Position numbers and translations under genes: made by a program. The notes beneath the pieces were generated by a model. That model did no database searches, had not been told where the DNA came from, and saw only the letters and a program-made list of their open reading frames with translations. A DNA stretch of 64,000 bases, from the NCBI GenBank assembly GCA_945860095.1, contig CAMAPP010000001.1, forward strand, positions 3,741 through 67,740, written 5' to 3'. Numbering within the stretch: position 1 is the first letter of the stretch; each line of letters opens with the position of its first letter. Of this stretch, positions 34,416-59,185 are shown in pieces. The DNA is from Rhizobium sp. Q54 (GTDB lineage Bacteria > Pseudomonadota > Alphaproteobacteria > CADEGL01).

Positions 34416-35644
34416 GCACGGTGTTGCGCGTGCTGTGTCTCGATATCGAGGGCGGCTTCGGCGGCTCCTCGCGCAGCCTGTTCGAGTCGATCCGGCACAT
34501 GGACCGTTCGGCCGTATCGGTCGAGATTTGGTGCCGGCGCGACGGCCCGGTCGTGCCGCGTTACCGCGCCCTCGGTGTCGCCTGCCGTGTCGTGCCGGCC
34601 ATGGCGCATTACAGCGCCCTGCCGCGATTCTCGCGCAATCTCGTCGCGCTTGCCGGCTTCGTTCGGCGGTTTGCAGCATCGCGCGCATTTCGTCGCGAGC
34701 TCGCAGCCGAAACGAATGCGCGCTTCGACCGCGTGCATTTCAATCACGAGGCGCTGTTCCTTCTCGCGCGTTGGCTTCGCCCCCGGACGCGCGCGCCCTT
34801 CATCGCCCATGTGCGGACCAATCTCCTGCCCGGCCCCTTCGCCCGTTGGCAGGCGCGAACCCTGGCGCGCGCGACGGACGCCCTGGCGTTCATCACGCGC
34901 AACGAGGTGGCGACGTTCCGCGCCCATGGCGGCAGGCCGCGCCTGGCTCGCATCATTCACAATATCGCCACCGCGCCCGATGCCGGTGCGGCCGGGCAGG
35001 CCGGAAAATCGGACGCCGGAAAATCGGACGCCGGGAAATCGGACGATTGGGAAAATGACGCACGGCTGCGTATCGCGTGTCTTAGCAATTATTCCTACGC
35101 GCGCGGCCTCGACCGGTTGCTCGATATCGCCGAGGAATTGCGTGCCCAAGGCCAGGCCGATGCCCTGTTCGTCGTCGCAGGGCGCATGGCGCTGACGCGC
35201 TCGCTGCCGGGGCTCTTGGGCGAGATCGGACGGCGCGGCGGCACGTTGGCGGATGCGGCCGAGGCGCGGGGGTTAGGCGGTTATTTTCGCTTCCTCGGTC
35301 ACGTCGAGAATCCCGATCGCGTCCTGGCCCAGTGCGCCGCGTTGATCAAGCCCACGCGCGAAGCCAATCCCTGGGGCCGCGATGTAATCGAGGCCTTGGC
35401 GGCGGGCCGCGCCGTGCTTTCATGCGGCACCGATGCGACCTTCGTGGAAAGTGGCGTCACGGGTTATTTGCAGGATGAATTTGACGCAGCCGCCATGGCC
35501 CGCGAGGTCGCGCGTCTTGCCGGCGACCGCGAAGCCCTGCGGCGCATGGGCGAGACGGGCAGGGCGCGGGTGGCACGGTTGTGCGATGGCCCGTCCCGCG
35601 CGCGGGACTTGCTTGATCTTTGGCGCGAGGCGGTCCGGCCATGA
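34412..35644 (+). CDS. Glycosyltransferase family 4
   Basis: GT-B fold with a C-terminal E-x7-E-like region. It carries an internal AGKSD x3 repeat insertion. Confidence 0.75.
   Translation: MSTVLRVLCLDIEGGFGGSSRSLFESIRHMDRSAVSVEIWCRRDGPVVPRYRALGVACRVVPAMAHYSALPRFSRNLVALAGFVRRFAASRAFRRELAAETNARFDRVHFNHEALFLLARWLRPRTRAPFIAHVRTNLLPGPFARWQARTLARATDALAFITRNEVATFRAHGGRPRLARIIHNIATAPDAGAAGQAGKSDAGKSDAGKSDDWENDARLRIACLSNYSYARGLDRLLDIAEELRAQGQADALFVVAGRMALTRSLPGLLGEIGRRGGTLADAAEARGLGGYFRFLGHVENPDRVLAQCAALIKPTREANPWGRDVIEALAAGRAVLSCGTDATFVESGVTGYLQDEFDAAAMAREVARLAGDREALRRMGETGRARVARLCDGPSRARDLLDLWREAVRP
35000..35044 (+). repeat. 15-bp x3 in-frame tandem repeat (GCCGGAAAATCGGAC) inside the GT4 gene
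   Basis: Direct reading gives gccggaaaatcggac gccggaaaatcggac gccgggaaatcggac, encoding AGKSDAGKSDAGKSD. Confidence 0.8.
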
Positions 35645-43268: not shown

Positions 43269-44144
43269 ATGAAGATTGCCGTCGCCGGCGCCACGGGCAA
43301 AACCGGGCGGCATCTGGTGGCGCGATTGTGCTCGGACGGCCATAGGGTCGTCGCCCTTGGCCGCGATCCCGCCCGTTTCGCCGCCGTGGATTCGCGCGCG
43401 GACCGGCGGCTGGCGGATTTCACCGACGCGCGCGCCCACGCGGCCGCGCTGGAGGGCGCCGAGGCCGTCGTCAATTGCGCGGAAGCCCGCTTCACCGAAG
43501 CCGTGCTGGCGGCCTTGCCGCCCGACTGCCGACGCCTCGTGCTCACGGGCACCATGCGGCGTTTCCTCGCCGAGCCCGACGAGCCCGGCCGCCATGCCGC
43601 CCACGCCGAGACGGCGCTCGACCGGCATCTTCGCGCGCACCCCGGGCGCACGGGAATCATCGTCCATTTCGGCATGATCTACGGCCCGCCGGACGACGCA
43701 AATGTCGAACGGCTTTTGGCGGTCGTTCGGCGCTGGCCTTCCTGGCTGCCGCTGATAGCGCCCCTGCCCGGCGGCGGCCGGGCCACCGTGCAGCCCATAT
43801 ACATGGACGACGCGGTGGAGACCTTGCAGCGCGCACTCGACCGGGACGATTCGGGCCCGCCGATTACCGCCGCCGGACCGCCCATCACCTATGCCGAGAT
43901 GGTCAGGCATTGCGCGCGCGCGCTCGGCCGGTGCTCGGTCGTCCTGGCGATGCCCGCCGCGCTGCCGGCGCTGGCGATCAGTCTGGGCATGCGCCTGCCC
44001 TTCGATCCCAAGGAATGGCGGCGCACGGCCGAAAGCAAGCGCCAAAGCCTCGATCCCCTCCACGCCCGGCTGGGCATTGCGCCGCGGAGTTTTGCCGAGG
44101 GCCTCGCGGCCAAGCTCGCGCGCCTTGATCGCGCCGACATCTAA
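43269..44144 (+). CDS. NAD(P)-binding NmrA/epimerase-like protein
   Basis: N-terminal Rossmann motif IAVAGATGKTGRHLV is present. Confidence 0.6.
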   Translation: MKIAVAGATGKTGRHLVARLCSDGHRVVALGRDPARFAAVDSRADRRLADFTDARAHAAALEGAEAVVNCAEARFTEAVLAALPPDCRRLVLTGTMRRFLAEPDEPGRHAAHAETALDRHLRAHPGRTGIIVHFGMIYGPPDDANVERLLAVVRRWPSWLPLIAPLPGGGRATVQPIYMDDAVETLQRALDRDDSGPPITAAGPPITYAEMVRHCARALGRCSVVLAMPAALPALAISLGMRLPFDPKEWRRTAESKRQSLDPLHARLGIAPRSFAEGLAAKLARLDRADI

Positions 44145-44292
44145 TCCCACCCAGCGCCCGATCCCGCCCATGCCCGATCTCGGCCAGTCCCGTCCCACCC
44201 ATGTCCGATCTCGGCCACGCGCCCATCGCCGCTGGCGCACCACTCTCGGGCCGCGATTGATTCCTCGCGCGCCTTCGAGGATACAGGCGGGT

Positions 44293-48561: not shown

Positions 48562-50148
48562 ATGACCGATGACCGATTGGTTTCTGTTCGCCGCGCCTTG
48601 CTGTCGGTTTCGGACAAGGCTGGGCTCGTCGAACTCGGCCGTTTCCTTGCCGGGCGCGAAATCGAGATTCTCTCGACCGGCGGCACCGCCCGCGCCCTGG
48701 TCGCGGAGGGAATTGCGGTCACCGAGGTGTCGGCGCACACGGGGTTTCCCGAGATTCTCGACGGCCGGGTGAAAACGCTGCACCCCGCGATTCACGGCGG
48801 CATACTCGCGCGCCGCGAGCTGGCCGAACATCGCGCCGCGATGGCGGAGCACAAGATCGCGGCCATCGATCTGGTGATCGTAAACCTGTATCCCTTCGAG
48901 GCGACCCTCGCCTCGGGCGCCGGCTTCGACGACTGCATCGAGAACATCGATATCGGCGGCCCGGCCTTGATTCGCGCCGCGGCCAAGAACCACGTCCATG
49001 TGGCGGTCGCGACCGATCCGGCCGATTACGAGGCGATCATGGCCGAAATGGCCGCGACCGGCGGCGCGACGACCATGGCCTTGCGCCGCAACCTCGCGGC
49101 CCGCGCCTATTCGCGCACGGCCGCCTACGACGCGGCGATCGGCGATTGGTTCGCGCGTTGCGAGGGCGAGGAATTTCCCCAACGCCTGGTGATCGCGGGC
49201 AAGCGCGCGCAGATGATGCGTTACGGCGAAAATCCGCACCAAGCGGCCGCCTTCTATCTCGGCGGCGATTGGCGCCCGGGCGTGGGCTCGGCCCGCCAGC
49301 TTCACGGCAAGGAGCTGAGTTACAACAATCTCGTCGATGCCGACGCGGCAATCGAGCTGGTCGCGGAGTTCGAACGCCCGGCGGTCGCCATCGTCAAGCA
49401 CGCCAACCCGTGCGGCGTGGCGACGGCCGACGCGTTGACCGAAGCGTATGGCTTGGCCCTTGCCTGCGATCCGGTCAGCGCCTTCGGCGGCATCGTCGCG
49501 GTCAATCGTCCACTCGACGCCGAGACGGCGAGGGTCATCGCCAAATTGTTCGCCGAGGTGGTCATCGCTCCTGGATATATGGCGGACGCGCTTTCGGCCC
49601 TCGCCGGCAAAAAAAATCTTCGGTTGCTCGATATCGGGCACATGCCGTCGCCCGGGGATTCCGCGCGCACATTCCGTTCGTTGGCCGGCGGATTTCTGGT
49701 GCAGACGCGCGACAATCGCCGCGTCGGCCGGGCGGATCTGACGTGCGTGACCAAACGGGCGCCGAGCGCGGCGGAAATCGACGACTTGCTGTTCGCCTTC
49801 GCCGTGTGCAAGCACGTGAAGTCGAATGCCATCGTCTACGCCCGCGACGGCGCGACGGTCGGGATCGGCGCCGGACAAATGAGCCGGATCGATTCGACCC
49901 GCACGGCCGCGCTTAAGGCCGAGGATGCCGCCCGGCTATCGGGTGGGGGCGAGCCGCGCACCCGGCGTTCCGTGGTCGCCTCGGACGCGTTCTTCCCGTT
50001 CCCCGACGGCTTGATCGCCGCCGCACAAGCGGGTGTCACGGCCGTCATTCAGCCCGGCGGCTCGGTCCGCGATGCCGAGGTGATCGCCGCCGCCGACGAC
50101 CGGGGCTTGGCCATGGTGTTCACGGGCGTGCGGCATTTTCGCCACTAA
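48562..50148 (+). CDS. purH: Bifunctional AICAR transformylase / IMP cyclohydrolase
   Basis: [22 protein letters not shown] and [15 protein letters not shown] are present. Confidence 0.9.
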
Positions 50149-51460
50149 GTTTGGCGCCACTAAGTTTGGTGCCGCCGCTACCCTCGCCGCCCGGCAAGCG
50201 CACCGACAACAACAGCACAAGGCCCACGACGAGAAAGACGAGAGTCGTCGCCATGCCCGCGCGCTGGCTGCCGGTTTCGACCGTGACCCAGGCGAGGATC
50301 AGGGGGCCGAGAAACGCGGTCGCCTTGCCGGTGAAGGCGTAGAGTCCGAAATATTCGCCGGCTTGGTCGCGCGGCACCAGGCGCGCCATGAGGGATCGGC
50401 TGGCGGCCTGGGCGGGGCCAAAAAACGTTCCGAGCCCAAGGCCAAGCGTCCAGAACATGGTTTTCGATTCGACGACCAGAAGCCCCGCGCCGATGGCCGT
50501 GAGCGCCACGAGCGCCATGATGATCGTCGGCTTCGGCCCGACCCAGTCGTCGATCCACGCAAAGCCCGCAGCACCCAGACCGGCCGTGACGTTGAGCGCG
50601 ATGCCGAACAGGATGATTTCGTCGAAGGCCATTCCGAAGGTGCCGGCCGCATAAATGCCGCCGAAGGCAAAGATGGTGTTGAGGCCGTCGGTATAAATCA
50701 TCCGGGCCAGCAGGAAACGACCGATGCGTGCCTCGCGCGGCAAGCGCTTCAACGTGCGCCAGAGATCGGCCAAGCCCTCGCAAACGGCGCGCCGGAGGCC
50801 GATACCCGTCGGGCCACGATCGGGTGTCCACAAAAGAATCGGCAGGGAAAACACCGCGAGCCACAACGCCACCAGAAGGGTTGTAGCGCGCACGGGCTCC
50901 TGCGCGGCCGGATCGAGCCCGAAGGGCGGCGGCGACGCCTGGATGAAACCCCAAAGCGAAATCGCAAGGCAGCACAAGCCGCCCGCATAGCCAAGACCCC
51001 AAGCCCAACCCGAGAGCCGGCCAAGCCTTCCGGGCGGAGCCAAATCGACGAGCATCGCGTTGTAAAACACCTGGCCGAGCTCGAAGGCGAGCGTGCCGAG
51101 CGCAAACCAGACGAGTGCCCATGCGGTATCCGAGGGCGTGGGCTCGGTGAACCAGAGCATCGCCGCGGACGCGGCGCAGAGCCAGGTGAAGACCGCAAGC
51201 CACGGCTTGCGCGCACCCGCCCGGTCGGCGACCGCGCCCAGGACCGGCGAAAGCACCGCGACCGCCGCCCCCGCGCCACCAACCGCCAAACCCCATTGCG
51301 CGGTTCCGGTTTCGACGTCCGCGGCGACCGCGCGCGCAAAGAACGCCGCGAACACGAAGGTCTCGATGACGGTCGGGAACGCGGAATTCGCCCAATCGTA
51401 AAGGCACCAAGACACGAGGCCACGGCGGGACGCACCCGCCACGGGCACCGTCCGCGTCAT
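50120..51460 (-). CDS. MFS transporter
   Basis: About 12 hydrophobic segments. Its start ATG overlaps the stop of the upstream gdh gene (ATGA on the minus strand). Confidence 0.7.
50140..50169. repeat. Perfect 15-bp x2 tandem duplication (CGCCACTAAGTTTGG) at the purH/MFS convergent overlap
   Basis: Read directly from the sequence. It duplicates the purH stop codon and a [10 protein letters not shown] unit at the C-terminus of the minus-strand MFS protein. Confidence 0.8.
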
Positions 51461-54400: not shown

Positions 54401-56274
54401 AGGTCGAGTTCGAGCGCGCCGGCGTGCATTTCGAAATCGTGGATATAGACCGGGTTCTTGCCGCCATCCGTTGCGACCGCGAAGGGAATTTCGGCCACGA
54501 CGCGAAGGCCCATGTGTTCGAGCATGGGCAAGATGTCGGACAGGGGAACCGGCGTGCCGCCGTGGAACAACTTGAAATGCAGCACGCCGTCCGCCGCGTC
54601 AAGGCGGCGGTAGAGGCTCATGGCGATGGGCGCGCCGGTGCGCACCTCTTCCACGCGCTCGATATCGCCGCAAGTGTCACGCGCGCCGAATATCTCGCGG
54701 TAGCCGGCGGGAAAGGCATCGCGGTAGCGGCCGAACAGATCGTGCCCGCGCGCTTCGCCCAGTTTTTCGATGAGCGCGTCTTGCAGATCGTCCGCCCAGC
54801 TGCGGCTGGCGTCCGAGAGGGCGTGTTCGATGGCGGCGAGGTCGACTTCGCGCGCCTCGACCGCAGGCGCGCGGACGATGAAATGCACGCGCGCCATGGG
54901 CGCGTCCGAGATATGGGTGTTGAAATCGACGGTTTCGCCTTTGAACGCAGAAAGCAAGATCGCCTCGTGCCGAAGGCGAAGATCGGTGGTGTAGCGTTCG
55001 CGCGGCACGTACACGAGGCAAGAGAAAAACCGGGCGTAGCTGTCCTGGCGAACGAACAGGCGGACGCGCTGGCGTTCCTCGAGATGGAGGATGCCGCGCG
55101 CGGTCGCGTATAAAAGCTCGACATCGACTTGGAACAGCTCGTCGCGCGGATAGGTTTCGAGGATGTTGAGGAGAGCCTTGGAATTGTGGCTTTGGGGCTT
55201 GAACCCAGAGCGCGCGACGACTTGTTCGATTTTTTGGCGCAGCAGGGGAATATCGCGCGGATTGCGGTTGTAGGCGGTCGAGGTAAAAAGGCCGACGAAG
55301 CGCCGCTCGCCGATCACCGCGCCGTCCGCCGCAAATCGACGCACGCCGATGTAATCCATATATACCGAACGATGAACGCGCGAACGGCTATTGGCCTTGG
55401 TGATGATGAGCAAGTGCTTGTCGCGCGCGACCTTGGCTATATTCTCGGGCAACGGGGCGGCATGACGCGCGGTCGATTCGGCCGAAACCTCGCGCAATAC
55501 GCCCTTGCCCGAATCCTGCACGACCCGGAGATAGTTCTGACCGTCCTTGGTTTCGAGCGCGTAATCGCGCACGCCGAGGAAGGTGAAATTTTCGTCGCGC
55601 ATCCATTCGAGGAAAGCCTTGCCTTCCGAGAGTTCGGCGGCCGCGAGTTTCGGCGGGGCCTTCTCGATATCGGCAATGAGCGCCTCGAGCGCGCCGCGCA
55701 TGGGCCGCCAATCCTCGACCGCAAGGCGCACTTCGGCCAAGACCTGGGTCAGGGACGTGGCGATGGCTTCGAGCGCGGCGGGCGCGGAGCGTTGGCTGAT
55801 TTCGATGTGCAACACCGATTCGTCGGCGCCGTCCTTGGCGCCGGCCGCCAGGACATCGGTCAACTTGCCGTCCTTGTCGCGCGCGATTCTAACGACCGGG
55901 TGGATGAGAAGATGGACGATGAGGTTTTGCCGATTGAGCGCGGAGACGATCGAATCGACGATGAACGGCATGTCGTCGTTGACGATCTCGATGACCGTAT
56001 GGGTCGAGAGCCAGCCGTGCTCTTCCTGGCACGGGTTGTAAGCGCGGATCTTGGGCGCGCCGGGCGTGCGCTTGGCCGCAAAGCGCCAGAGCGCGAGGGC
56101 TGCGCCAAAGAGCGTTGCGGCGTCGCCCTCGAGCAGGAGCTCCGGCGCGACGCCTTCGTAATAGCGACGCACGAAGCGCTCGATGGCCTCGCCGCGGCCC
56201 TTCGCCGTCGCGTGCACGCGGCGCACGATCTCGTCGATCAACTGCGCCTTGAGCTGCTCGGCTTGCCCGGGCAT
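51460..56274 (-). CDS. NAD-specific glutamate dehydrogenase, large (about 1600 aa) type
   Basis: A 1604-aa ORF with the architecture and conserved catalytic core (GGIRW, NAVIVPVGSKGGFV) of large bacterial NAD-GDH. Confidence 0.9.
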   Translation of the reverse strand: MPGQAEQLKAQLIDEIVRRVHATAKGRGEAIERFVRRYYEGVAPELLLEGDAATLFGAALALWRFAAKRTPGAPKIRAYNPCQEEHGWLSTHTVIEIVNDDMPFIVDSIVSALNRQNLIVHLLIHPVVRIARDKDGKLTDVLAAGAKDGADESVLHIEISQRSAPAALEAIATSLTQVLAEVRLAVEDWRPMRGALEALIADIEKAPPKLAAAELSEGKAFLEWMRDENFTFLGVRDYALETKDGQNYLRVVQDSGKGVLREVSAESTARHAAPLPENIAKVARDKHLLIITKANSRSRVHRSVYMDYIGVRRFAADGAVIGERRFVGLFTSTAYNRNPRDIPLLRQKIEQVVARSGFKPQSHNSKALLNILETYPRDELFQVDVELLYATARGILHLEERQRVRLFVRQDSYARFFSCLVYVPRERYTTDLRLRHEAILLSAFKGETVDFNTHISDAPMARVHFIVRAPAVEAREVDLAAIEHALSDASRSWADDLQDALIEKLGEARGHDLFGRYRDAFPAGYREIFGARDTCGDIERVEEVRTGAPIAMSLYRRLDAADGVLHFKLFHGGTPVPLSDILPMLEHMGLRVVAEIPFAVATDGGKNPVYIHDFEMHAGALELDLGAIGPKFQGAFGRIWAGEMGSDPLNRLVVTAGFSWRDVVVLRAYTRYLRQARAPFSLAYVEDTLARHGAIARLMVAAFHARFDPAATDGAMRMAAICAEVERALDAVTNLDEDRILRRMLNLVYATLRTNFFQTDEHGASKSYLSFKLDSRKVADLPLPRPMVEIFVYSPRMEGIHLRGGKVARGGIRWSDRREDFRTEVLGLMKAQMVKNAVIVPVGSKGGFVVKRPPKTGGREAMQAEVVTCYQTLIRGLLDITDNLKGAVVVPPPSVVRLDGDDPYLVVAADKGTATFSDIANAVSRDYAFWLGDAFASGGSAGYDHKKMGITARGGWVSVDRHFRELGRHIAAHPFSCVGVGDMSGDVFGNAMLRSDQTKMVGAFNHLHIFLDPDPDPAKSFAERQRLFALPRSTWADYDASLISKGGGVFARDLKSIKLSAEARALLKLDRDSATPTEIMRALLMLEVDLLWFGGIGAFVKAADESHADAGDRANDAIRIDGHEIGARIVGEGANLGLTQRGRIEYALKGGRINTDAIDNSGGVDCSDHEVNIKILLGDVVESGEMTLKQRDKLLEAMSDEVAELVLKNNYQQTQALSVMSARAPELLEQQTRMMRAMERAGRLDRAIEYLPDDETIAERRTAGIGLTRPELAVLLAYGKIALYDELLASDLPDDPLLVEDLGRYFPKALKSGHKDALLRHRLRREIIAKVVTNSMVNRVGASFVHDMREKTGYGAADVARAYAISRDAFDLRGVWRAIEALDGKAPAELQTAMMLEAGRLVERAVFWFLRNGGNPLDVAGTAAQFRPGIAALAAGLNGLLSADREARFRGHAAALERKGAPEELARRIAGFEDLGSACDIVRIARSRNVPIERVAQVYFTLGARLGLDWLHASAAAIKTDTPWQRTAVEAVVDDLFGHQSDLTARVLDDRNGAGAEGALDAWVGARTAAIGRTDALLADLKASAGVDIAMLAVANRQLRTLIV

Positions 56275-56470
56275 GTCTTGCTCCTGAATTTTCTGTCGTC
56301 GCGAATAAGTAAGCGATGTTACGGCGCACCAATTAGCGCAAGGCTAACTCGCAGCGCCCTCCTCCACCACGCCGCCCACCGACACGCCGTCATGACGCGA
56401 CATCGCCAACCGGTACGTTTCGCGATGGTCGTGGCATGGCGCCCTAGCTATTGTGGTTTGAAATCATTGT

Positions 56471-56758
56471 ATGCCAATATCTAGGGGTCGGGGATGTCGG
56501 GGAGACGACATGAGCGATCGTGAAGAGCAGGCTCGCGTCACGGCGTTGTGGATTCTGCATAGCGCCGCGTGCGCGAAATTACTGCGTTCCAAGGGGCGCA
56601 ATTGGCAGGCCGACGCCTTCGAGGCGGCGCTGTCGGAGTTGACGGAGATCGTCGCCGGCGAGCTGGGCCGCAAGCGTTTGGAAGCGGCGATGGATTGGGC
56701 CGCCGGACAAGCCTCGCGCAGCGGCGCGGAATACGACCCCATTCCCTCGCGCCATTGA
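56471..56758 (+). CDS. Small hypothetical protein
   Basis: ORF of 95 aa, or 82 aa from the alternative ATG at 56510. No recognisable motif. Confidence 0.3.
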   Translation: MPISRGRGCRGDDMSDREEQARVTALWILHSAACAKLLRSKGRNWQADAFEAALSELTEIVAGELGRKRLEAAMDWAAGQASRSGAEYDPIPSRH

Positions 56759-57019
56759 TCCCCTTCGGCGCGCCGCTCAATCCGCGGCGAAGCGCAAAGG
56801 CGAGAGATCGCACCGGTGCTCGGTGACGGCGAAATGGCGATCGAGCGGCGGAGAAGCGCGCTGGCCGCAGTCCTCGCGCGGACATAGCCGGCAATTGATC
56901 CCGATGAGCGTGCGATTGACGGAATTGTCGAGATCGAGGTCATCGGCATAGACGATACGCGCGGTGGAATGACCGCGAAGGCGCAACAACAGCGAGAGTG
57001 AAAGGTGGATTGACGTCAA

Positions 57020-57229
57020 ATGAATCCAACCGAATCGCGCTATTGGATCATCGGCGGCGAATACGAATCCGCCGCCTTCGAGCGCCTGGTGCCGGGCACA
57101 AGGACATTAGTCGGGCCGTTCGAGCGCAAGGAATTGGCCGAAGCCGCATGGCGCGATAGGACACAGGCCACGCGCCCCAGTTGCCAGACCCGCCACACCA
57201 TCGCCGAGGAACGCGCCAATCACATCTGA
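57020..57229 (+). CDS. Small hypothetical protein, possibly DUF4170-like
   Basis: A 69-aa ORF (YWIIGGEYE ... AEAAWRDRTQATR) vaguely resembling the alphaproteobacterial DUF4170 pattern. Confidence 0.4.
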   Translation: MNPTESRYWIIGGEYESAAFERLVPGTRTLVGPFERKELAEAAWRDRTQATRPSCQTRHTIAEERANHI

Positions 57230-57262
57230 CGCGCGGCGGCGGAGCAACGGGTTTCCGGAAAC

Positions 57263-57337
57263 TGGAGCGGGAGAAGGGATTCGAACCCTCGACCCTCACG
57301 TTGGCAACGTGATGCTCTACCCCTGAGCTACTCCCGC
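57263..57337 (-). tRNA. tRNA-Gly(GCC): tRNA-Gly (anticodon GCC), with encoded CCA
   Basis: The reverse complement reads GCGGGAGTAGCTCAGGGGTAGAGCATCACGTTGCCAACGTGAGGGTCGAGGGTTCGAATCCCTTCTCCCGCTCCA, which folds into a cloverleaf with anticodon loop TTGCCAA. Confidence 0.85.
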
Positions 57338-57370
57338 TTTCGGGCGGGATATTACGTCCTCGGAGCGTCA

Positions 57371-57483
57371 TTGCAAGTCATAGCGCAAGTCATGGCGGCA
57401 AGTCGTGGGCGCAAGTCAGGGCCGCAAGTCATAGCCACAAGTCATGGCCGCAAGTCGTGGGGGCAAGCCTTGCGGGCAAGTTC
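57371..57483. repeat. About 9 copies of a degenerate 13-bp direct repeat (consensus GC-CAAGTC-RTGG) between tRNA-Gly and the proX-like gene
   Basis: CAAGTC cores occur at 57374, 57386, 57399, 57412, 57425, 57438 and 57451, with degenerate CAAGCC/CAAGTT at 57464 and 57477. Spacing is 12-13 bp. Confidence 0.7.
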
Positions 57484-57564
57484 GGGACGCCGCTCCGGCC
57501 GAGGGTGTCAACGCGCCCCACACCCGCCTTCCAGACCAAGCCCGATCCGTTTTATCGTGCCGCC

Positions 57565-58095
57565 ATGGCATACACACCCGATCGATTGCTCGCGCGCTTG
57601 GGCGAGCTCGGCATCCCCTACACCAATCACCGGCACCCGCCACTGTTCACCGTGGCCGACAGCAAGGCCCTGCGCGGCACGCTTCCGGGCGGGCATTGCA
57701 AAAGCCTGTTCCTCAAGGGCAAGCGCGGCGAGCTCTACCTCGTGGTTGCGCTCGAGGATCGGGCGATCGACCTGAAGCGCCTGCGCAAGACGCTCGGAAC
57801 CGGCAGCCTGTCCTTCGGCGGCCCGGAGCTGTTATTCGAAATCCTGGGCGTGCGCCCAGGTGCCGTGACCCCGTTCGGCCTCGTCAACGACACCGAACGC
57901 AAGGTCGCGGTCGTCCTTGATTCGGCGATGCTCGCGCGCGACCCGCTCAACTATCACCCCCTGACCAACGACATGACGACGGCGGTGCCGTCCCAGGGAT
58001 TGCTCGCCTTTATCGCCGCATGCGGCCATGTGCCGCGCGTTCTCGATTTCGATGCGCCGGACGACGCCGCGTCCGAGCCCAAACCGGCCGGATAA
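57565..58095 (+). CDS. YbaK/ProX-like aminoacyl-tRNA deacylase domain protein
   Basis: LPGGHCKSLFLKGK ... GAVTPFGL are typical of prolyl-tRNA editing domain proteins. Track entry 57457 is over-extended across the repeat array. Confidence 0.7.
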   Translation: MAYTPDRLLARLGELGIPYTNHRHPPLFTVADSKALRGTLPGGHCKSLFLKGKRGELYLVVALEDRAIDLKRLRKTLGTGSLSFGGPELLFEILGVRPGAVTPFGLVNDTERKVAVVLDSAMLARDPLNYHPLTNDMTTAVPSQGLLAFIAACGHVPRVLDFDAPDDAASEPKPAG

Positions 58096-58176
58096 GCCCG
58101 GCTGAATGAGCCCGGCTGGGTAAGCCCGGCCAGATAAACCCCGCCGGATAAGCCCGGCTGGATGAGCCATGACCAC
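58081..58176. repeat. About 6 copies of a 14-bp direct repeat (TRAGCCCGGCYRGR) starting at the proX-like stop codon
   Basis: Units are taagcccggctgaa, tgagcccggctggg, taagcccggccaga, taaaccccgccgga, taagcccggctgga and tgagccatgacca. Each unit begins with TAA or TGA. Confidence 0.7.
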
Positions 58177-58270
58177 GCCGGGCGCGCCGGGGCCGTGAGC
58201 GCCGGGGTTGCAAGCGGAGATGCGCGCGGCCAAATATGGGTGAACGGACAACCCTCGGAAAGCGAGCCCC

Positions 58271-59185
58271 ATGGAAGCCCTTATCGGCGCCGCCGCGGCG
58301 CCCCAAGACTTGATCAAAGACAGCGACAATCAGCGATTCATGGCCGATGTCATCGAAGTGTCGAAGACGACGCCCGTGCTCGTCGATTTCTGGGCGCCGT
58401 GGTGCGGGCCATGCAAGCAGCTGACGCCCACGCTCGAAAAGGTCGTCAAGGCGGCCGCGGGCAAGGTCAAGCTAGTCAAGATCAATATCGACGAAAACCA
58501 GGAACTGGCGCAGCAGTTGCGCATCCAGTCGATTCCGGTCGTCTATGGCTTCAAGGACGGCCGGCCGGTCGACGGCTTCGTCGGCCTGCAAACCGAAACC
58601 CAAATCCGCCAGTTCGTCGAGCGCCTGATGGGCGGCGGCGAACATGTCGGCCCCGATCCCATCGACGCGGCGCTGGCCGAGGCCAAGGCCGCGCTCGAAG
58701 CCAAGGACGCAGGCACCGCCACGGCCATCTACGGCCAGATCCTGGCCCACGATCCCAAGAACGTAAAAGCGATCGCGGGTCTTGCGCGCGCGCGCGTGCT
58801 CGCGGGCGACCCCGCCCAGGCGCGGCAATATCTCGACGCCGTGCCGAAGGAAAACGCCGGCGACGCCGATGTCGCGGCGGCGCGCTCGACCATCGAGTTG
58901 GCCGAGAAGGCGCAACAGTCGTCGGGCAAACTCGGCGAGTATGAAGCCCGCCTGGCACAAGACCCGAACGACCATCAGGCGCGGTTCGATTGGGCGCTGG
59001 CGCAATACGCGGCCGAGAACACCGAAGGGTCGATCGACGCATTGCTCGAAATTATCCGCCGCAAGCGCGATTGGAACGAAGACGCCGCGCGCAAGCAATT
59101 GGTGCAGATTTTCGACGCGCTCGGCTTCGGCCACCCGCTCGTGTCCGCCGGCCGGCGCAAATTATCCGCGATTCTGTTCAAGTGA
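58271..59185 (+). CDS. Thioredoxin-domain plus TPR co-chaperone (YbbN/CnoX-like)
   Basis: WAPWCGPCK thioredoxin motif followed by a TPR-like C-terminal half. Confidence 0.8.
   Translation: MEALIGAAAAPQDLIKDSDNQRFMADVIEVSKTTPVLVDFWAPWCGPCKQLTPTLEKVVKAAAGKVKLVKINIDENQELAQQLRIQSIPVVYGFKDGRPVDGFVGLQTETQIRQFVERLMGGGEHVGPDPIDAALAEAKAALEAKDAGTATAIYGQILAHDPKNVKAIAGLARARVLAGDPAQARQYLDAVPKENAGDADVAAARSTIELAEKAQQSSGKLGEYEARLAQDPNDHQARFDWALAQYAAENTEGSIDALLEIIRRKRDWNEDAARKQLVQIFDALGFGHPLVSAGRRKLSAILFK

What the first reader, a model, noticed from the sequence alone, without database searches (positions are those of the whole stretch)
57371..57483. Nine-copy degenerate 13-bp direct repeat array in the tRNA-Gly/proX divergent region
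CAAGTC cores recur every 12-13 bp (...GCAAGTCATAGC GCAAGTCATGGCG GCAAGTCGTGGGC GCAAGTCAGGGCC GCAAGTCATAGCC...). The array lies directly upstream of the tRNA-Gly gene (minus strand) and 80 bp upstream of the proX-like start. The period is not a multiple of 3 and the array is non-coding. It could be an iterated transcription-factor or nucleoid-protein binding array, a tRNA-adjacent integration hot-spot remnant, or a genus-specific minisatellite.
Basis: seen in the sequence. Interest (0 to 1): 0.55.

Follow-up and report, generated by a model that had tools for sequence, protein, structure and literature searches.

The report
Strain-variable 13-bp minisatellite at tRNA-Gly promoter
The 13-bp repeat array is real, but it is most likely an ordinary young minisatellite that differs in copy number between strains; it grew out of the -35 box of the tRNA-Gly promoter in one uncultured alphaproteobacterial lineage and is not a conserved regulatory device.

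Summary
Window 57373-57488 holds seven well-kept 13-bp units (the first is 12 bp; consensus GCAAGTCATGGCC) and two degenerate units. This is far beyond chance, and the array recurs in at least 13 independent metagenome assemblies.

It lies between two divergent core promoters that I inferred by comparison with about 55 related loci. The tRNA-Gly promoter is TTGCAA-N16-TAATAT on the minus strand, and unit 1 overlaps its -35 hexamer. The proX promoter has its -10 (TATCGT) 6 nt before the ATG, so the mRNA is probably leaderless.

Near-identical strains carry 9 or 8 units, a difference of exactly one unit that is linked to one flanking haplotype. A sister species (about 88-91% DNA identity) keeps the promoter and only about 2.3 units of 12 bp, followed by non-repetitive G-rich DNA. 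More distant relatives keep the tRNA-Gly/proX pair in a gap of about 80-190 bp with no array.

The core motif is not enriched elsewhere in the window. There is no integrase and no duplicated tRNA end. A second array just downstream of proX (14 bp x 6) expanded in the same lineage.

Best reading: a lineage-specific minisatellite (a VNTR, variable-number tandem repeat) made by replication slippage, neutral or mildly modulatory. An iterated protein-binding array is not excluded, because the 7-bp core is better kept than the rest of the unit. An integration remnant is rejected. Interest is low to moderate.

The parts
57263..57337 (-). tRNA-Gly (anticodon GCC)
   Evidence: ARAGORN. Rfam RF00005, 70.9 bits. 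Identical in sequence to the tRNA-Gly of loci L141/L142.
57349..57354 (-). Inferred -10 hexamer of the tRNA-Gly promoter (TAATAT on the minus strand), 11 nt before the mature 5' end
   Evidence: Comparison of related loci: TATGAT, TATTAT or TAATAT lies 16 nt downstream of TTGCAA upstream of tRNA-Gly in most of about 55 related loci. This 44-bp stretch is 100% identical in sister species L225. Inferred; no transcription start site data.
57371..57376 (-). Inferred -35 hexamer of the tRNA-Gly promoter (TTGCAA, which is its own reverse complement); its last four + strand bases are the first four bases of repeat unit 1
   Evidence: the best hexamer pair in the window is TTGCAA-N16-TAATAT. The same TTGCAA with a 16-nt spacer is seen in L141, L149, L159, L163, L174, L185, L189, L191 and many others. 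Inferred.
57373..57462 (+). Homogeneous part of the minisatellite: 7 units (12 bp, then 6 x 13 bp), consensus GCAAGTCATGGCC. Units 1-3 resemble units 5-7, suggesting duplication of a 4-unit (52-bp) block.
   Evidence: One unit (57425-57437 in the alignment) is missing in the 8-unit allele of L120, L122 and L124.
57463..57488 (+). Two degenerate units (GCAAGCCTTGCGG, GCAAGTTCGGGAC). They align to non-repeat flank in the sister species. Unit 8 contains the palindrome GCAAGCCTTGC (57463-57473).
   Evidence: L225 has GGGGAAGCCTTGCGGGCGCGTTCGGGAC at this place. The palindrome GCAAG-N1-2-CTTGC marks back-to-back -35 boxes in 16 related loci. Whether unit 8 is a relic of that arrangement is speculation.
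57529..57558 (+). Inferred proX promoter: weak -35 TTCCAG (57529-57534), 18-nt spacer, -10 TATCGT (57553-57558), then 6 nt to the ATG. The mRNA is probably leaderless.
   Evidence: relatives show CTTGCG-N17-(C/T)ATCGT-N6-9-ATG. The window and L225 share TTTTATCGTGCC(G/C)CC directly before the ATG. Inferred.
57565..58095 (+). proX-like gene (aminoacyl-tRNA editing domain; sources annotate homologues as Ala-tRNA(Pro) deacylase)
   Evidence: Pfam PF04073, E 4.8e-28. 4502 homologues at E<=1e-30. The start Met is invariant in alignment A1.
58084..58168 (+). Second, unrelated minisatellite: 14 bp x 6 (CCGGCYGGATRAGC). It begins in the last codons of proX and lies upstream of the thioredoxin-TPR gene.
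   Evidence: TRF score 100-114. All strains have 6 units. Sister species L225 has about 1.8 units. It is listed because it shows that the same lineage expanded two neighbouring proto-repeats.

Best explanation
The array is a young, lineage-specific minisatellite (a VNTR, variable-number tandem repeat). It arose by replication slippage or unequal recombination from a short proto-repeat (about two 12-bp copies, GCAAGTCATGGC) that lies directly against the -35 hexamer of the tRNA-Gly(GCC) promoter.

Each unit therefore carries a copy of the upstream half of that -35 box: TTGC on the tRNA strand, read as GCAA on the + strand. The array fills the space between two divergent core promoters (tRNA-Gly on the minus strand, proX on the plus strand) without interrupting either. 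The TTGCAA-N16-TAATAT geometry stays intact in every allele.

A change in copy number alters only the length and helical phase of the DNA upstream of both promoters: 13 bp is about 1.24 helical turns. The most likely functional status is neutral, or at most a mild modulator of promoter strength.

Shown: the repeat, its copy-number polymorphism, its absence or decay in relatives, and its position. Inferred: the promoter elements (from comparison of related loci only), the slippage mechanism, and neutrality.
For: - The array is real and reproducible.
- There are 9-unit and 8-unit alleles, differing by exactly 13 bp, among near-identical strains. The 8-unit allele (L120, L122, L124) is linked to one flanking SNP haplotype, so it is one indel event across about 1.5-2% sequence divergence.
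- Sister species L225 (88-91% DNA identity over the locus) has the first 44 bp upstream of the tRNA 100% identical, then only GCAAGTCATGGC GCAAGCCATGGC GCAAAC (TRF 12 bp x 2.3), then non-repetitive G-rich DNA.
- Relatives with 55-75% ProX identity keep the divergent tRNA-Gly/proX pair in about 55 of 80 metagenome loci and in L140-L142. Their gaps are mostly 80-190 bp and none has a homologous array.
- The promoter inference TTGCAA-N16-TA(A/T)(T/G)AT is recurrent across those loci, and the window's unit 1 overlaps the -35.
- GCAAGTC is not enriched outside the array: 8 copies against about 7.9 expected. There is no other 13-bp-spaced pair in the 64 kb.
- A second neighbouring array (14 bp x 6) also grew from about 2 units in the same lineage. 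This points to a mutational tendency of the lineage rather than a locus-specific function.
- SNP density in the array (3 in 111 bp) is similar to that of its surroundings.
Against: - The 7-bp core is better kept than positions 8-13: 1 of 49 against 9 of 41 mismatched cells in the seven good units, Fisher p=0.005. All three strain SNPs in the array fall outside cores. This is the pattern expected of a binding motif.
- After allowing for block duplication the signal rests on only about 7 independent events (6 of 7 outside the core, binomial p=0.04), so it is weak.
- Neutrality is an inference. No expression, transcription start site or binding data exist.
- The whole genome of the source organism was not available, so a genome-wide search for the motif could not be done.
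Confidence: 0.7

Rival explanations
1. Iterated cis-regulatory array. The GCAAGTC/GACTTGC cores are binding sites for a DNA-binding protein, or -35-like decoy sites for RNA polymerase sigma region 4. Arrayed upstream of both divergent promoters, they tune or couple expression of tRNA-Gly and the tRNA-editing gene proX, and copy number acts as a rheostat.
For: - The core is better conserved than the rest of the unit.
- Strain SNPs avoid the cores.
- The core contains CTTGC, the conserved part of the -35 element used by both promoters in relatives. There it is also half of a conserved palindrome, GCAAG-N1-2-CTTGC.
- The array sits at about -33 to -145 of the tRNA promoter, where upstream activators of stable-RNA promoters act (established knowledge for E. 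coli rRNA and tRNA promoters).
Against: - The array is not conserved: the sister species has about 2 units and decayed cores, and more distant relatives have none.
- The motif is not enriched elsewhere in the window.
- No regulator gene is associated with it.
- A 13-bp period puts successive sites about 86 degrees apart around the helix, unlike the 10-11 bp or 21-22 bp spacing of known arrays bound cooperatively.
- Inner units are out of register for forming promoters. Among 119 other CAAGTC 13-bp arrays, the last unit is followed by a -10-like hexamer no more often than in controls (3/119 against 1.7%).
- The palindrome in relatives is explained by two back-to-back -35 boxes.
Confidence: 0.17
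2. Phase-variable contingency locus. Frequent gain or loss of units switches tRNA-Gly or proX expression on and off within a population.
For: A whole-unit copy-number difference exists between strains. Tandem repeats upstream of core promoters are associated with phase-variable expression in Mannheimia haemolytica lkt (PMC2697988).
Against: - The tract is not between the -35 and the -10, nor in a coding region or 5' UTR. The promoter geometry is identical in both alleles.
- Only two alleles were seen in at least 13 assemblies, and the shorter one is linked to one haplotype, so the indel rate is low relative to point divergence.
- Housekeeping genes (a tRNA and a tRNA-editing enzyme) are unusual targets for phase variation.
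Confidence: 0.08
3. Remnant of a tRNA-linked integration site (the att scar of a genomic island or prophage).
For: Only the proximity to a tRNA gene.
Against: - The array is on the 5' promoter side, whereas integrases target the 3' part of tRNA genes (established knowledge).
- There is no second copy of the tRNA 3' end in 64 kb, even with 3 mismatches allowed.
- There is no integrase or other mobile-element gene nearby.
- The flanking genes are syntenic in L225 and, on the proX side, in distant relatives.
- The units are head-to-tail 13-mers, not an att duplication.
Confidence: 0.02

Closest known systems
Intergenic bacterial VNTRs or minisatellites (for example the MIRU-VNTR loci of Mycobacterium tuberculosis; own knowledge)
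   Same: Head-to-tail units of 10-100 bp in intergenic DNA. Alleles differ by whole units between strains. Variant units occur within the array. Restricted to a lineage. Usually no demonstrated function.
   Different: This one starts inside a promoter's -35 hexamer, so each unit repeats half of that box. The unit is very short (13 bp). The organism is an uncultured alphaproteobacterium for which only two alleles are known.
[quoted passage not shown]
   Same: The repeats lie upstream of a conserved core promoter in an intergenic region. They are confined to one species, and unit sequence and number track the phylogeny.
   Different: For the Mannheimia repeats the authors propose phase-variable expression of a virulence gene. 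Here the flanking genes are housekeeping (tRNA-Gly, proX), and there is no evidence of an effect on expression or of rapid switching.
The TAAA repeat tract upstream of the nadA promoter in Neisseria meningitidis (own knowledge, not checked here)
   Same: A repeat tract upstream of the -35 box, where copy number changes the spacing and phasing of upstream DNA relative to the core promoter.
   Different: A 4-bp microsatellite with high-frequency slippage and known binding proteins (NadR, IHF). Here the unit is 13 bp, the indel rate is low and no binding protein is known.
Iterons and iterated operator arrays (plasmid origin iterons; the omega-protein heptad arrays of pSM19035; ParR-bound parC repeats; own knowledge)
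   Same: Multiple direct repeats with a conserved core and less conserved spacer positions, placed at promoters.
   Different: Those arrays have a cognate binding-protein gene nearby, are conserved among relatives, and have periods matched to the helical repeat or to contiguous binding. None of this holds here.

Membership tests
Bacterial VNTR / minisatellite | Head-to-tail tandem copies of a 10-100 bp unit, beyond chance | tested here: met
   TRF period 13, score 113. 7 in-register copies. 6 spaced core pairs against 0.17 expected.
Bacterial VNTR / minisatellite | Alleles differing by whole units between closely related strains | tested here: met
   227-bp (9 units) against 214-bp (8 units) intergenic region in independent assemblies with an identical ProX protein.
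Bacterial VNTR / minisatellite | Lineage-restricted; different copy number or absent at the orthologous site in related species | tested here: met
   L225 has about 2.3 units. L140-L142 and about 55 metagenome loci have none.
Phase-variable promoter repeat (contingency locus) | Repeat tract placed so that unit changes alter core promoter geometry (between the -35 and the -10) or the reading frame | tested here: not met
   The array lies upstream of, and overlaps only the upstream edge of, the inferred -35. The TTGCAA-N16-TAATAT geometry is unchanged in both alleles. The promoter itself is inferred.
Phase-variable promoter repeat (contingency locus) | High-frequency length heterogeneity within populations | tested here: inconclusive
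   Only two alleles in at least 13 assemblies, and the shorter is linked to one haplotype. Consensus assemblies cannot show minority length variants.
Iterated protein-binding array (iteron-like) | Conserved core within each unit | tested here: inconclusive
   Core 1/49 against rest 9/41 mismatches, p=0.005. After allowing for block duplication, about 6 of 7 events lie outside the core, p=0.04.
Iterated protein-binding array (iteron-like) | Array conserved at the orthologous position in relatives | tested here: not met
Iterated protein-binding array (iteron-like) | Cognate DNA-binding protein gene nearby, or the motif reused elsewhere in the genome | tested here: not met
   The neighbours are glutamate dehydrogenase (GDH), an 82-aa ORF, a truncated ScfR fragment, DUF4170, ProX, Trx-TPR, a LON-domain protein and Trm112. 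The motif is not enriched in the 64 kb. The whole genome was not available.
Iterated protein-binding array (iteron-like) | Demonstrated protein binding | not testable with these tools
   Needs gel-shift (EMSA), footprinting or ChIP.
tRNA-linked integration site remnant | Direct repeat of the tRNA 3' end and an integrase gene; located at the 3' side of the tRNA | tested here: not met
   There is a single copy of the tRNA 3' 25-mer even with 3 mismatches allowed. There is no integrase. The array is on the 5' side.
UP element of stable-RNA promoters | A+T-rich sequence at about -40 to -60 | tested here: not met
   The unit consensus GCAAGTCATGGCC is 8/13 G+C. It has no A or T tracts.

The most novel reading that the evidence does not exclude
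The array is a functional, evolvable cis-element made by iterating the -35 half-site (CTTGC) that the tRNA-Gly and proX promoters share in this clade. It would bind RNA polymerase sigma region 4 or a lineage-specific factor at up to nine sites. Unit number would then set the relative output of a glycine tRNA and of a tRNA-editing enzyme. That would be a copy-number rheostat on translation-fidelity genes, built from a promoter's own -35 box.
Probability: 0.1. Interest if true: 0.55.

Novelty: new member of a known kind. Interest (0 to 1): 0.25.

Why it matters
If the ordinary reading holds, the array is mainly useful as a strain-typing marker for this uncultured alphaproteobacterial population. 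It is also a clean example of how a minisatellite is born. A two-copy proto-repeat lies next to a -35 box in the sister species, and this lineage has seven to nine copies in the same place. A second array 600 bp away went through the same process.

The comparison also gave a side result of some general use. The tRNA-Gly(GCC)/proX divergent pair is widespread in Alphaproteobacteria. In many lineages its two -35 boxes lie back to back as a palindrome, and proX appears to be leaderless.

If the array does modulate the promoters, it would be a rare case of copy-number tuning at housekeeping translation genes.

Tried and rejected
- **Search of species-representative genomes** for three CAAGTC cores at 13-bp spacing. 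The other seven unit positions differ, and none lies next to tRNA-Gly. These are unrelated 13-bp minisatellites, and the source genome was not among them. L060 has similar-looking units, but it lies between a response-regulator gene and a cNMP-binding gene, an unrelated context.
- **General '-35 iteration' idea.** Among those 119 arrays the last GACTTG unit is followed by a TAnnnT hexamer at 16-18 nt in 3 cases (2.5%), against 1.7% for control TTG sites. Rejected.
- **Structured RNA or DNA.** Rfam finds only the tRNA. Folding either strand as single-stranded DNA gives z-scores of -0.6. Rejected.
- **Generic sigma-70 scan.** It found no promoter in 57100-58400 because the local hexamers score 8 of 12. 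The promoters were recovered only by comparison with relatives.
- **Integration remnant.** Rejected (neighbours).
- **Coding potential.** The ORFs across the array (57371..57775, and 57457..58095 with a GTG start) are not supported. The conserved start of ProX is ATG 57565.
- **The 96%-identical relative (P0001).** Its contig has no DNA on file. Only gene spacings and 18 residues translated from upstream of the proX ATG could be used.
- **Literature searches** for 13-bp repeats at bacterial promoters gave nothing specific, apart from the Mannheimia lkt analogue.
- **The two GCAAGTC copies at 444-469.** They are 19 bp apart, inside a region overlapped by long ORFs, and look like chance.

Full report

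Yes. Reading 57000-57900 shows nine consecutive units on the + strand:
- GCAAGTCATAGC
- GCAAGTCATGGCG
- GCAAGTCGTGGGC
- GCAAGTCAGGGCC
- GCAAGTCATAGCC
- ACAAGTCATGGCC
- GCAAGTCGTGGGG
- GCAAGCCTTGCGG
- GCAAGTTCGGGAC

They span 57373-57488. Tandem Repeats Finder (TRF) reports a 13-bp period, 6.8 copies and score 113 at 57373-57460, with a weaker continuation to 57480. The repeat finder gives seven in-register copies at 13-bp spacing. CAAGTC-N7-CAAGTC with at most 1 mismatch occurs six times in the 64 kb, all here, against 0.17 expected; 0 of 100 shuffles reach that number.

tRNA-Gly(GCC) is at 57263-57337 on the minus strand. The proX-like gene (Pfam tRNA_edit, E 4.8e-28) starts at ATG 57565. Its Met aligns with the invariant first residue of 23 homologues.

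The array is not an assembly artefact. It appears in 14 loci from different samples, assemblers and MAGs that encode the identical ProX or DUF4170 protein.

**2. What surrounds it?**

The window comes from an uncultured alphaproteobacterium known only from metagenomes. The gene order is:
- NAD-glutamate dehydrogenase (GDH, minus strand)
- an 82-aa ORF
- a truncated ScfR fragment
- DUF4170
- tRNA-Gly (minus strand)
- the array
- proX, thioredoxin-TPR, a LON-domain protein, Trm112, a GBBH-like protein
- an FAD monooxygenase (minus strand)

There is no integrase, transposase or other mobile-element gene.

**3. Promoters, by comparison with relatives**

A generic sigma-70 scan found nothing, so I collected related loci:
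- L140-L144 through ProX homologues
- 80 metagenome loci found with a ProX alignment
- a sister species, L225

The divergent tRNA-Gly(GCC)/proX pair is present in about 55 of the 80 metagenome loci and in L140-L142.

Upstream of the tRNA, most loci have (C)TTGCAA, a 16-nt spacer of unrelated sequence, then TATGAT, TATTAT or TAATAT. The window has the same arrangement on the minus strand: TTGCAA (57371-57376), 16 nt, TAATAT (57349-57354), and 11 nt to the mature 5' end. L141/L142, whose tRNA is identical to the window's, have TTGCAA-N16-TAATAT with a completely different spacer.

So unit 1 of the array (57373 onwards) overlaps the -35 hexamer. On the tRNA strand every unit ends in GACTTGC, which is a copy of the upstream half of the -35 box.

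For proX, relatives show CTTGCG-N17-(C/T)ATCGT followed by 6-9 nt and the ATG. This suggests a leaderless mRNA. The window has TATCGT at 57553-57558, 6 nt before the ATG, and only a weak -35 (TTCCAG, 57529-57534).

In 16 related loci the two -35 boxes lie back to back and form the palindrome GCAAG-N1-2-CTTGC. All promoter assignments are inferences from comparative sequence. There are no transcription start site data.

**4. Variation between strains**

Among loci that encode the identical ProX protein, the tRNA-to-ATG distance is 227 bp (9 units; the window and nine other loci that span the gap) or 214 bp (8 units; L120, L122, L124). The difference is exactly one unit.

A multiple alignment of 7.5 kb shows that the 8-unit allele belongs to one haplotype, defined for example by A at 57233 and C at 57397. 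That haplotype differs from the other by roughly 1.5-2% over most of the region.

So one unit was gained or lost during that divergence. The array is a polymorphic but fairly stable VNTR, not a hypermutable tract. The three SNPs inside the array (57397, 57433, 57461) give a density similar to that of the surroundings, and all lie outside the 7-bp cores.

**5. Relatives**

Sister species L225 (GCA_046153685.1) is 88-91% identical in DNA across the locus. The first 44 bp upstream of the tRNA (-10, spacer, -35 and the start of unit 1) are 100% identical. Then it reads GCAAGTCATGGC GCAAGCCATGGC GCAAAC, which TRF scores as 12 bp x 2.3.

That is followed by non-repetitive G-rich sequence, AGGGGGTACGCCACGGGGGCGAGGCACGGGGAAGCCTTGCGGGCGCGTTCGGGAC, and then a proX-proximal part about 93% identical to the window's. 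The L225 intergenic region is 196 bp.

Three conclusions follow:
- The common ancestor had at least a two-copy proto-repeat against the -35 box.
- The window lineage has seven good copies where L225 has decayed or unrelated sequence with only a faint 13-bp echo (CACGGGG twice).
- The window's 'units' 8 and 9 correspond to flanking sequence in L225.

More distant relatives (55-75% ProX identity) have gaps of mostly 80-190 bp and no homologous array. A few have unrelated repeats in the same gap: L189 (16 bp x 5), L171 (11 bp x 3) and L207 (GC-rich).

**6. Is the motif used elsewhere?**

GCAAGTC occurs 8 times outside the array in the window, against about 7.9 expected. No other 13-bp-spaced pair exists.

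Their other unit positions differ, and none lies next to tRNA-Gly. They are unrelated 13-bp minisatellites, which shows only that such arrays are common. The source genome was not among them, so a true genome-wide test remains to be done.

**7. Is there any sign of function?**

Within the seven good units the 7-bp core has 1 mismatch in 49 cells and positions 8-13 have 9 in 41 (Fisher p=0.005). With all nine units the figures are 3/63 against 16/53.

However, units 1-3 resemble units 5-7, so part of this pattern was copied by duplication of a 52-bp block. Counting about seven independent events, six fall outside the core (binomial p=0.04). This is weak evidence for constraint on the core. It could also reflect homogenisation.

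Several points count against a binding array:
- The multi-copy array is not conserved even in the sister species.
- No regulator gene is associated with it.
- The motif is not reused in the window.
- The 13-bp period is about 1.24 helical turns, so neighbouring sites lie about 86 degrees apart around the helix.
- Inner units cannot form promoters. A -10-like TATGAC in units 1 and 5 would need its -35 box 22-23 nt upstream, and ACTTGC or GACTTG lies there instead.

The general idea that such arrays iterate -35 boxes fails as well. Only 3 of 119 arrays have a -10-like hexamer at the right distance after the last unit, against 1.7% for controls.

Neither strand folds better than shuffled sequence (z about -0.6), and Rfam has no match.

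**8. A second array in the same lineage**

A 14-bp x 6 array (CCGGCYGGATRAGC, 58084-58168) begins in the last codons of proX and lies upstream of the thioredoxin-TPR gene. All strains have six units. L225 has about 1.8 units.

A 96%-identical relative has a proX-trx gap 28 bp longer, which would fit two more units. Its DNA is not on file, so this is an inference.

Two neighbouring proto-repeats expanding in the same lineage points to a mutational tendency rather than to a function specific to one locus.

**9. Conclusion**

The best explanation is a lineage-specific minisatellite (VNTR). It was generated by slippage or unequal recombination from a proto-repeat adjoining the tRNA-Gly -35 box, and it lies between two divergent core promoters without disrupting them. 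It is probably neutral or mildly modulatory (confidence about 0.7).

The rivals are:
- an iterated binding or decoy array that tunes the two promoters (about 0.17)
- a phase-variable contingency locus (about 0.08)
- an integration remnant (about 0.02, rejected on position, and on gene content)

The closest known things are intergenic bacterial VNTRs and the species-restricted tandem repeats upstream of the Mannheimia haemolytica lkt core promoter (PMC2697988). The finding is a new member of a known kind, and interest is low to moderate.

Noticed in passing
window 58084-58168: A second minisatellite, 14 bp x 6 (CCGGCYGGATRAGC). It starts in the last codons of proX and ends 39 bp before a TTGCAA (58207-58212) that could be the -35 box of the thioredoxin-TPR gene. 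All strains have 6 units, sister species L225 has about 1.8, and a 96% relative has a gap 28 bp longer.
   Followed up: partly
window 56777-57019 (minus strand); L225 1529-4433: The window keeps only an 80-aa C-terminal fragment of an ScfR-type regulator (PF09856). Sister species L225 has the full 481-aa regulator plus an isocitrate lyase gene between the 82-aa ORF and DUF4170. blastn shows that the window lacks about 2.7 kb (L225 1715-4417), so this lineage apparently lost isocitrate lyase at this locus.
   Followed up: partly
L146-L224 and L140-L142 (tRNA-Gly/proX intergenic regions); window 57338-57564: The divergent tRNA-Gly(GCC)/proX pair is widespread in Alphaproteobacteria (about 55 of 80 loci). 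In 16 loci the two -35 boxes lie back to back as the palindrome GCAAG-N1-2-CTTGC in an intergenic region of only 81-122 bp. proX has a conserved (C/T)ATCGT hexamer 6-9 nt before its ATG, which suggests a leaderless mRNA.
   Followed up: partly
window 61758; L225 9114-9149: [quoted passage not shown] L225 has an 18-bp x 2 tandem repeat in the corresponding intergenic region, so this may be another small VNTR.
   Followed up: no
window 55190-56560: SNP density between strain haplotypes is about 10% in the 5' part of the NAD-glutamate dehydrogenase gene and its upstream region, against about 1.5-2% in the next 5 kb. This looks like a recombination tract or a divergent allele.
   Followed up: no
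L189 1658-1736: A distant relative has an unrelated 16-bp x 5 array (TCCAACGGCCAGGAAA) in the same tRNA-Gly/proX intergenic region (gap 363 bp). Tandem arrays have therefore arisen there independently at least twice.
   Followed up: no
window 35000-35045, 44144-44217, 50140-50173: Other short tandem arrays in the window: 15 bp x 3.1 (GCCGGAAAATCGGAC, overlapped by long ORFs, possibly coding), 31 bp x 1.9, and 15 bp x 2.3 just after a gene end. The lineage seems rich in small tandem repeats.
   Followed up: no
L001-L119: At least 119 unrelated 13-bp tandem arrays with a CAAGTC core exist across many bacterial phyla and some archaea, with many in Bradyrhizobium, Rhodopseudomonas and uncultured Alphaproteobacteria.
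   Followed up: partly
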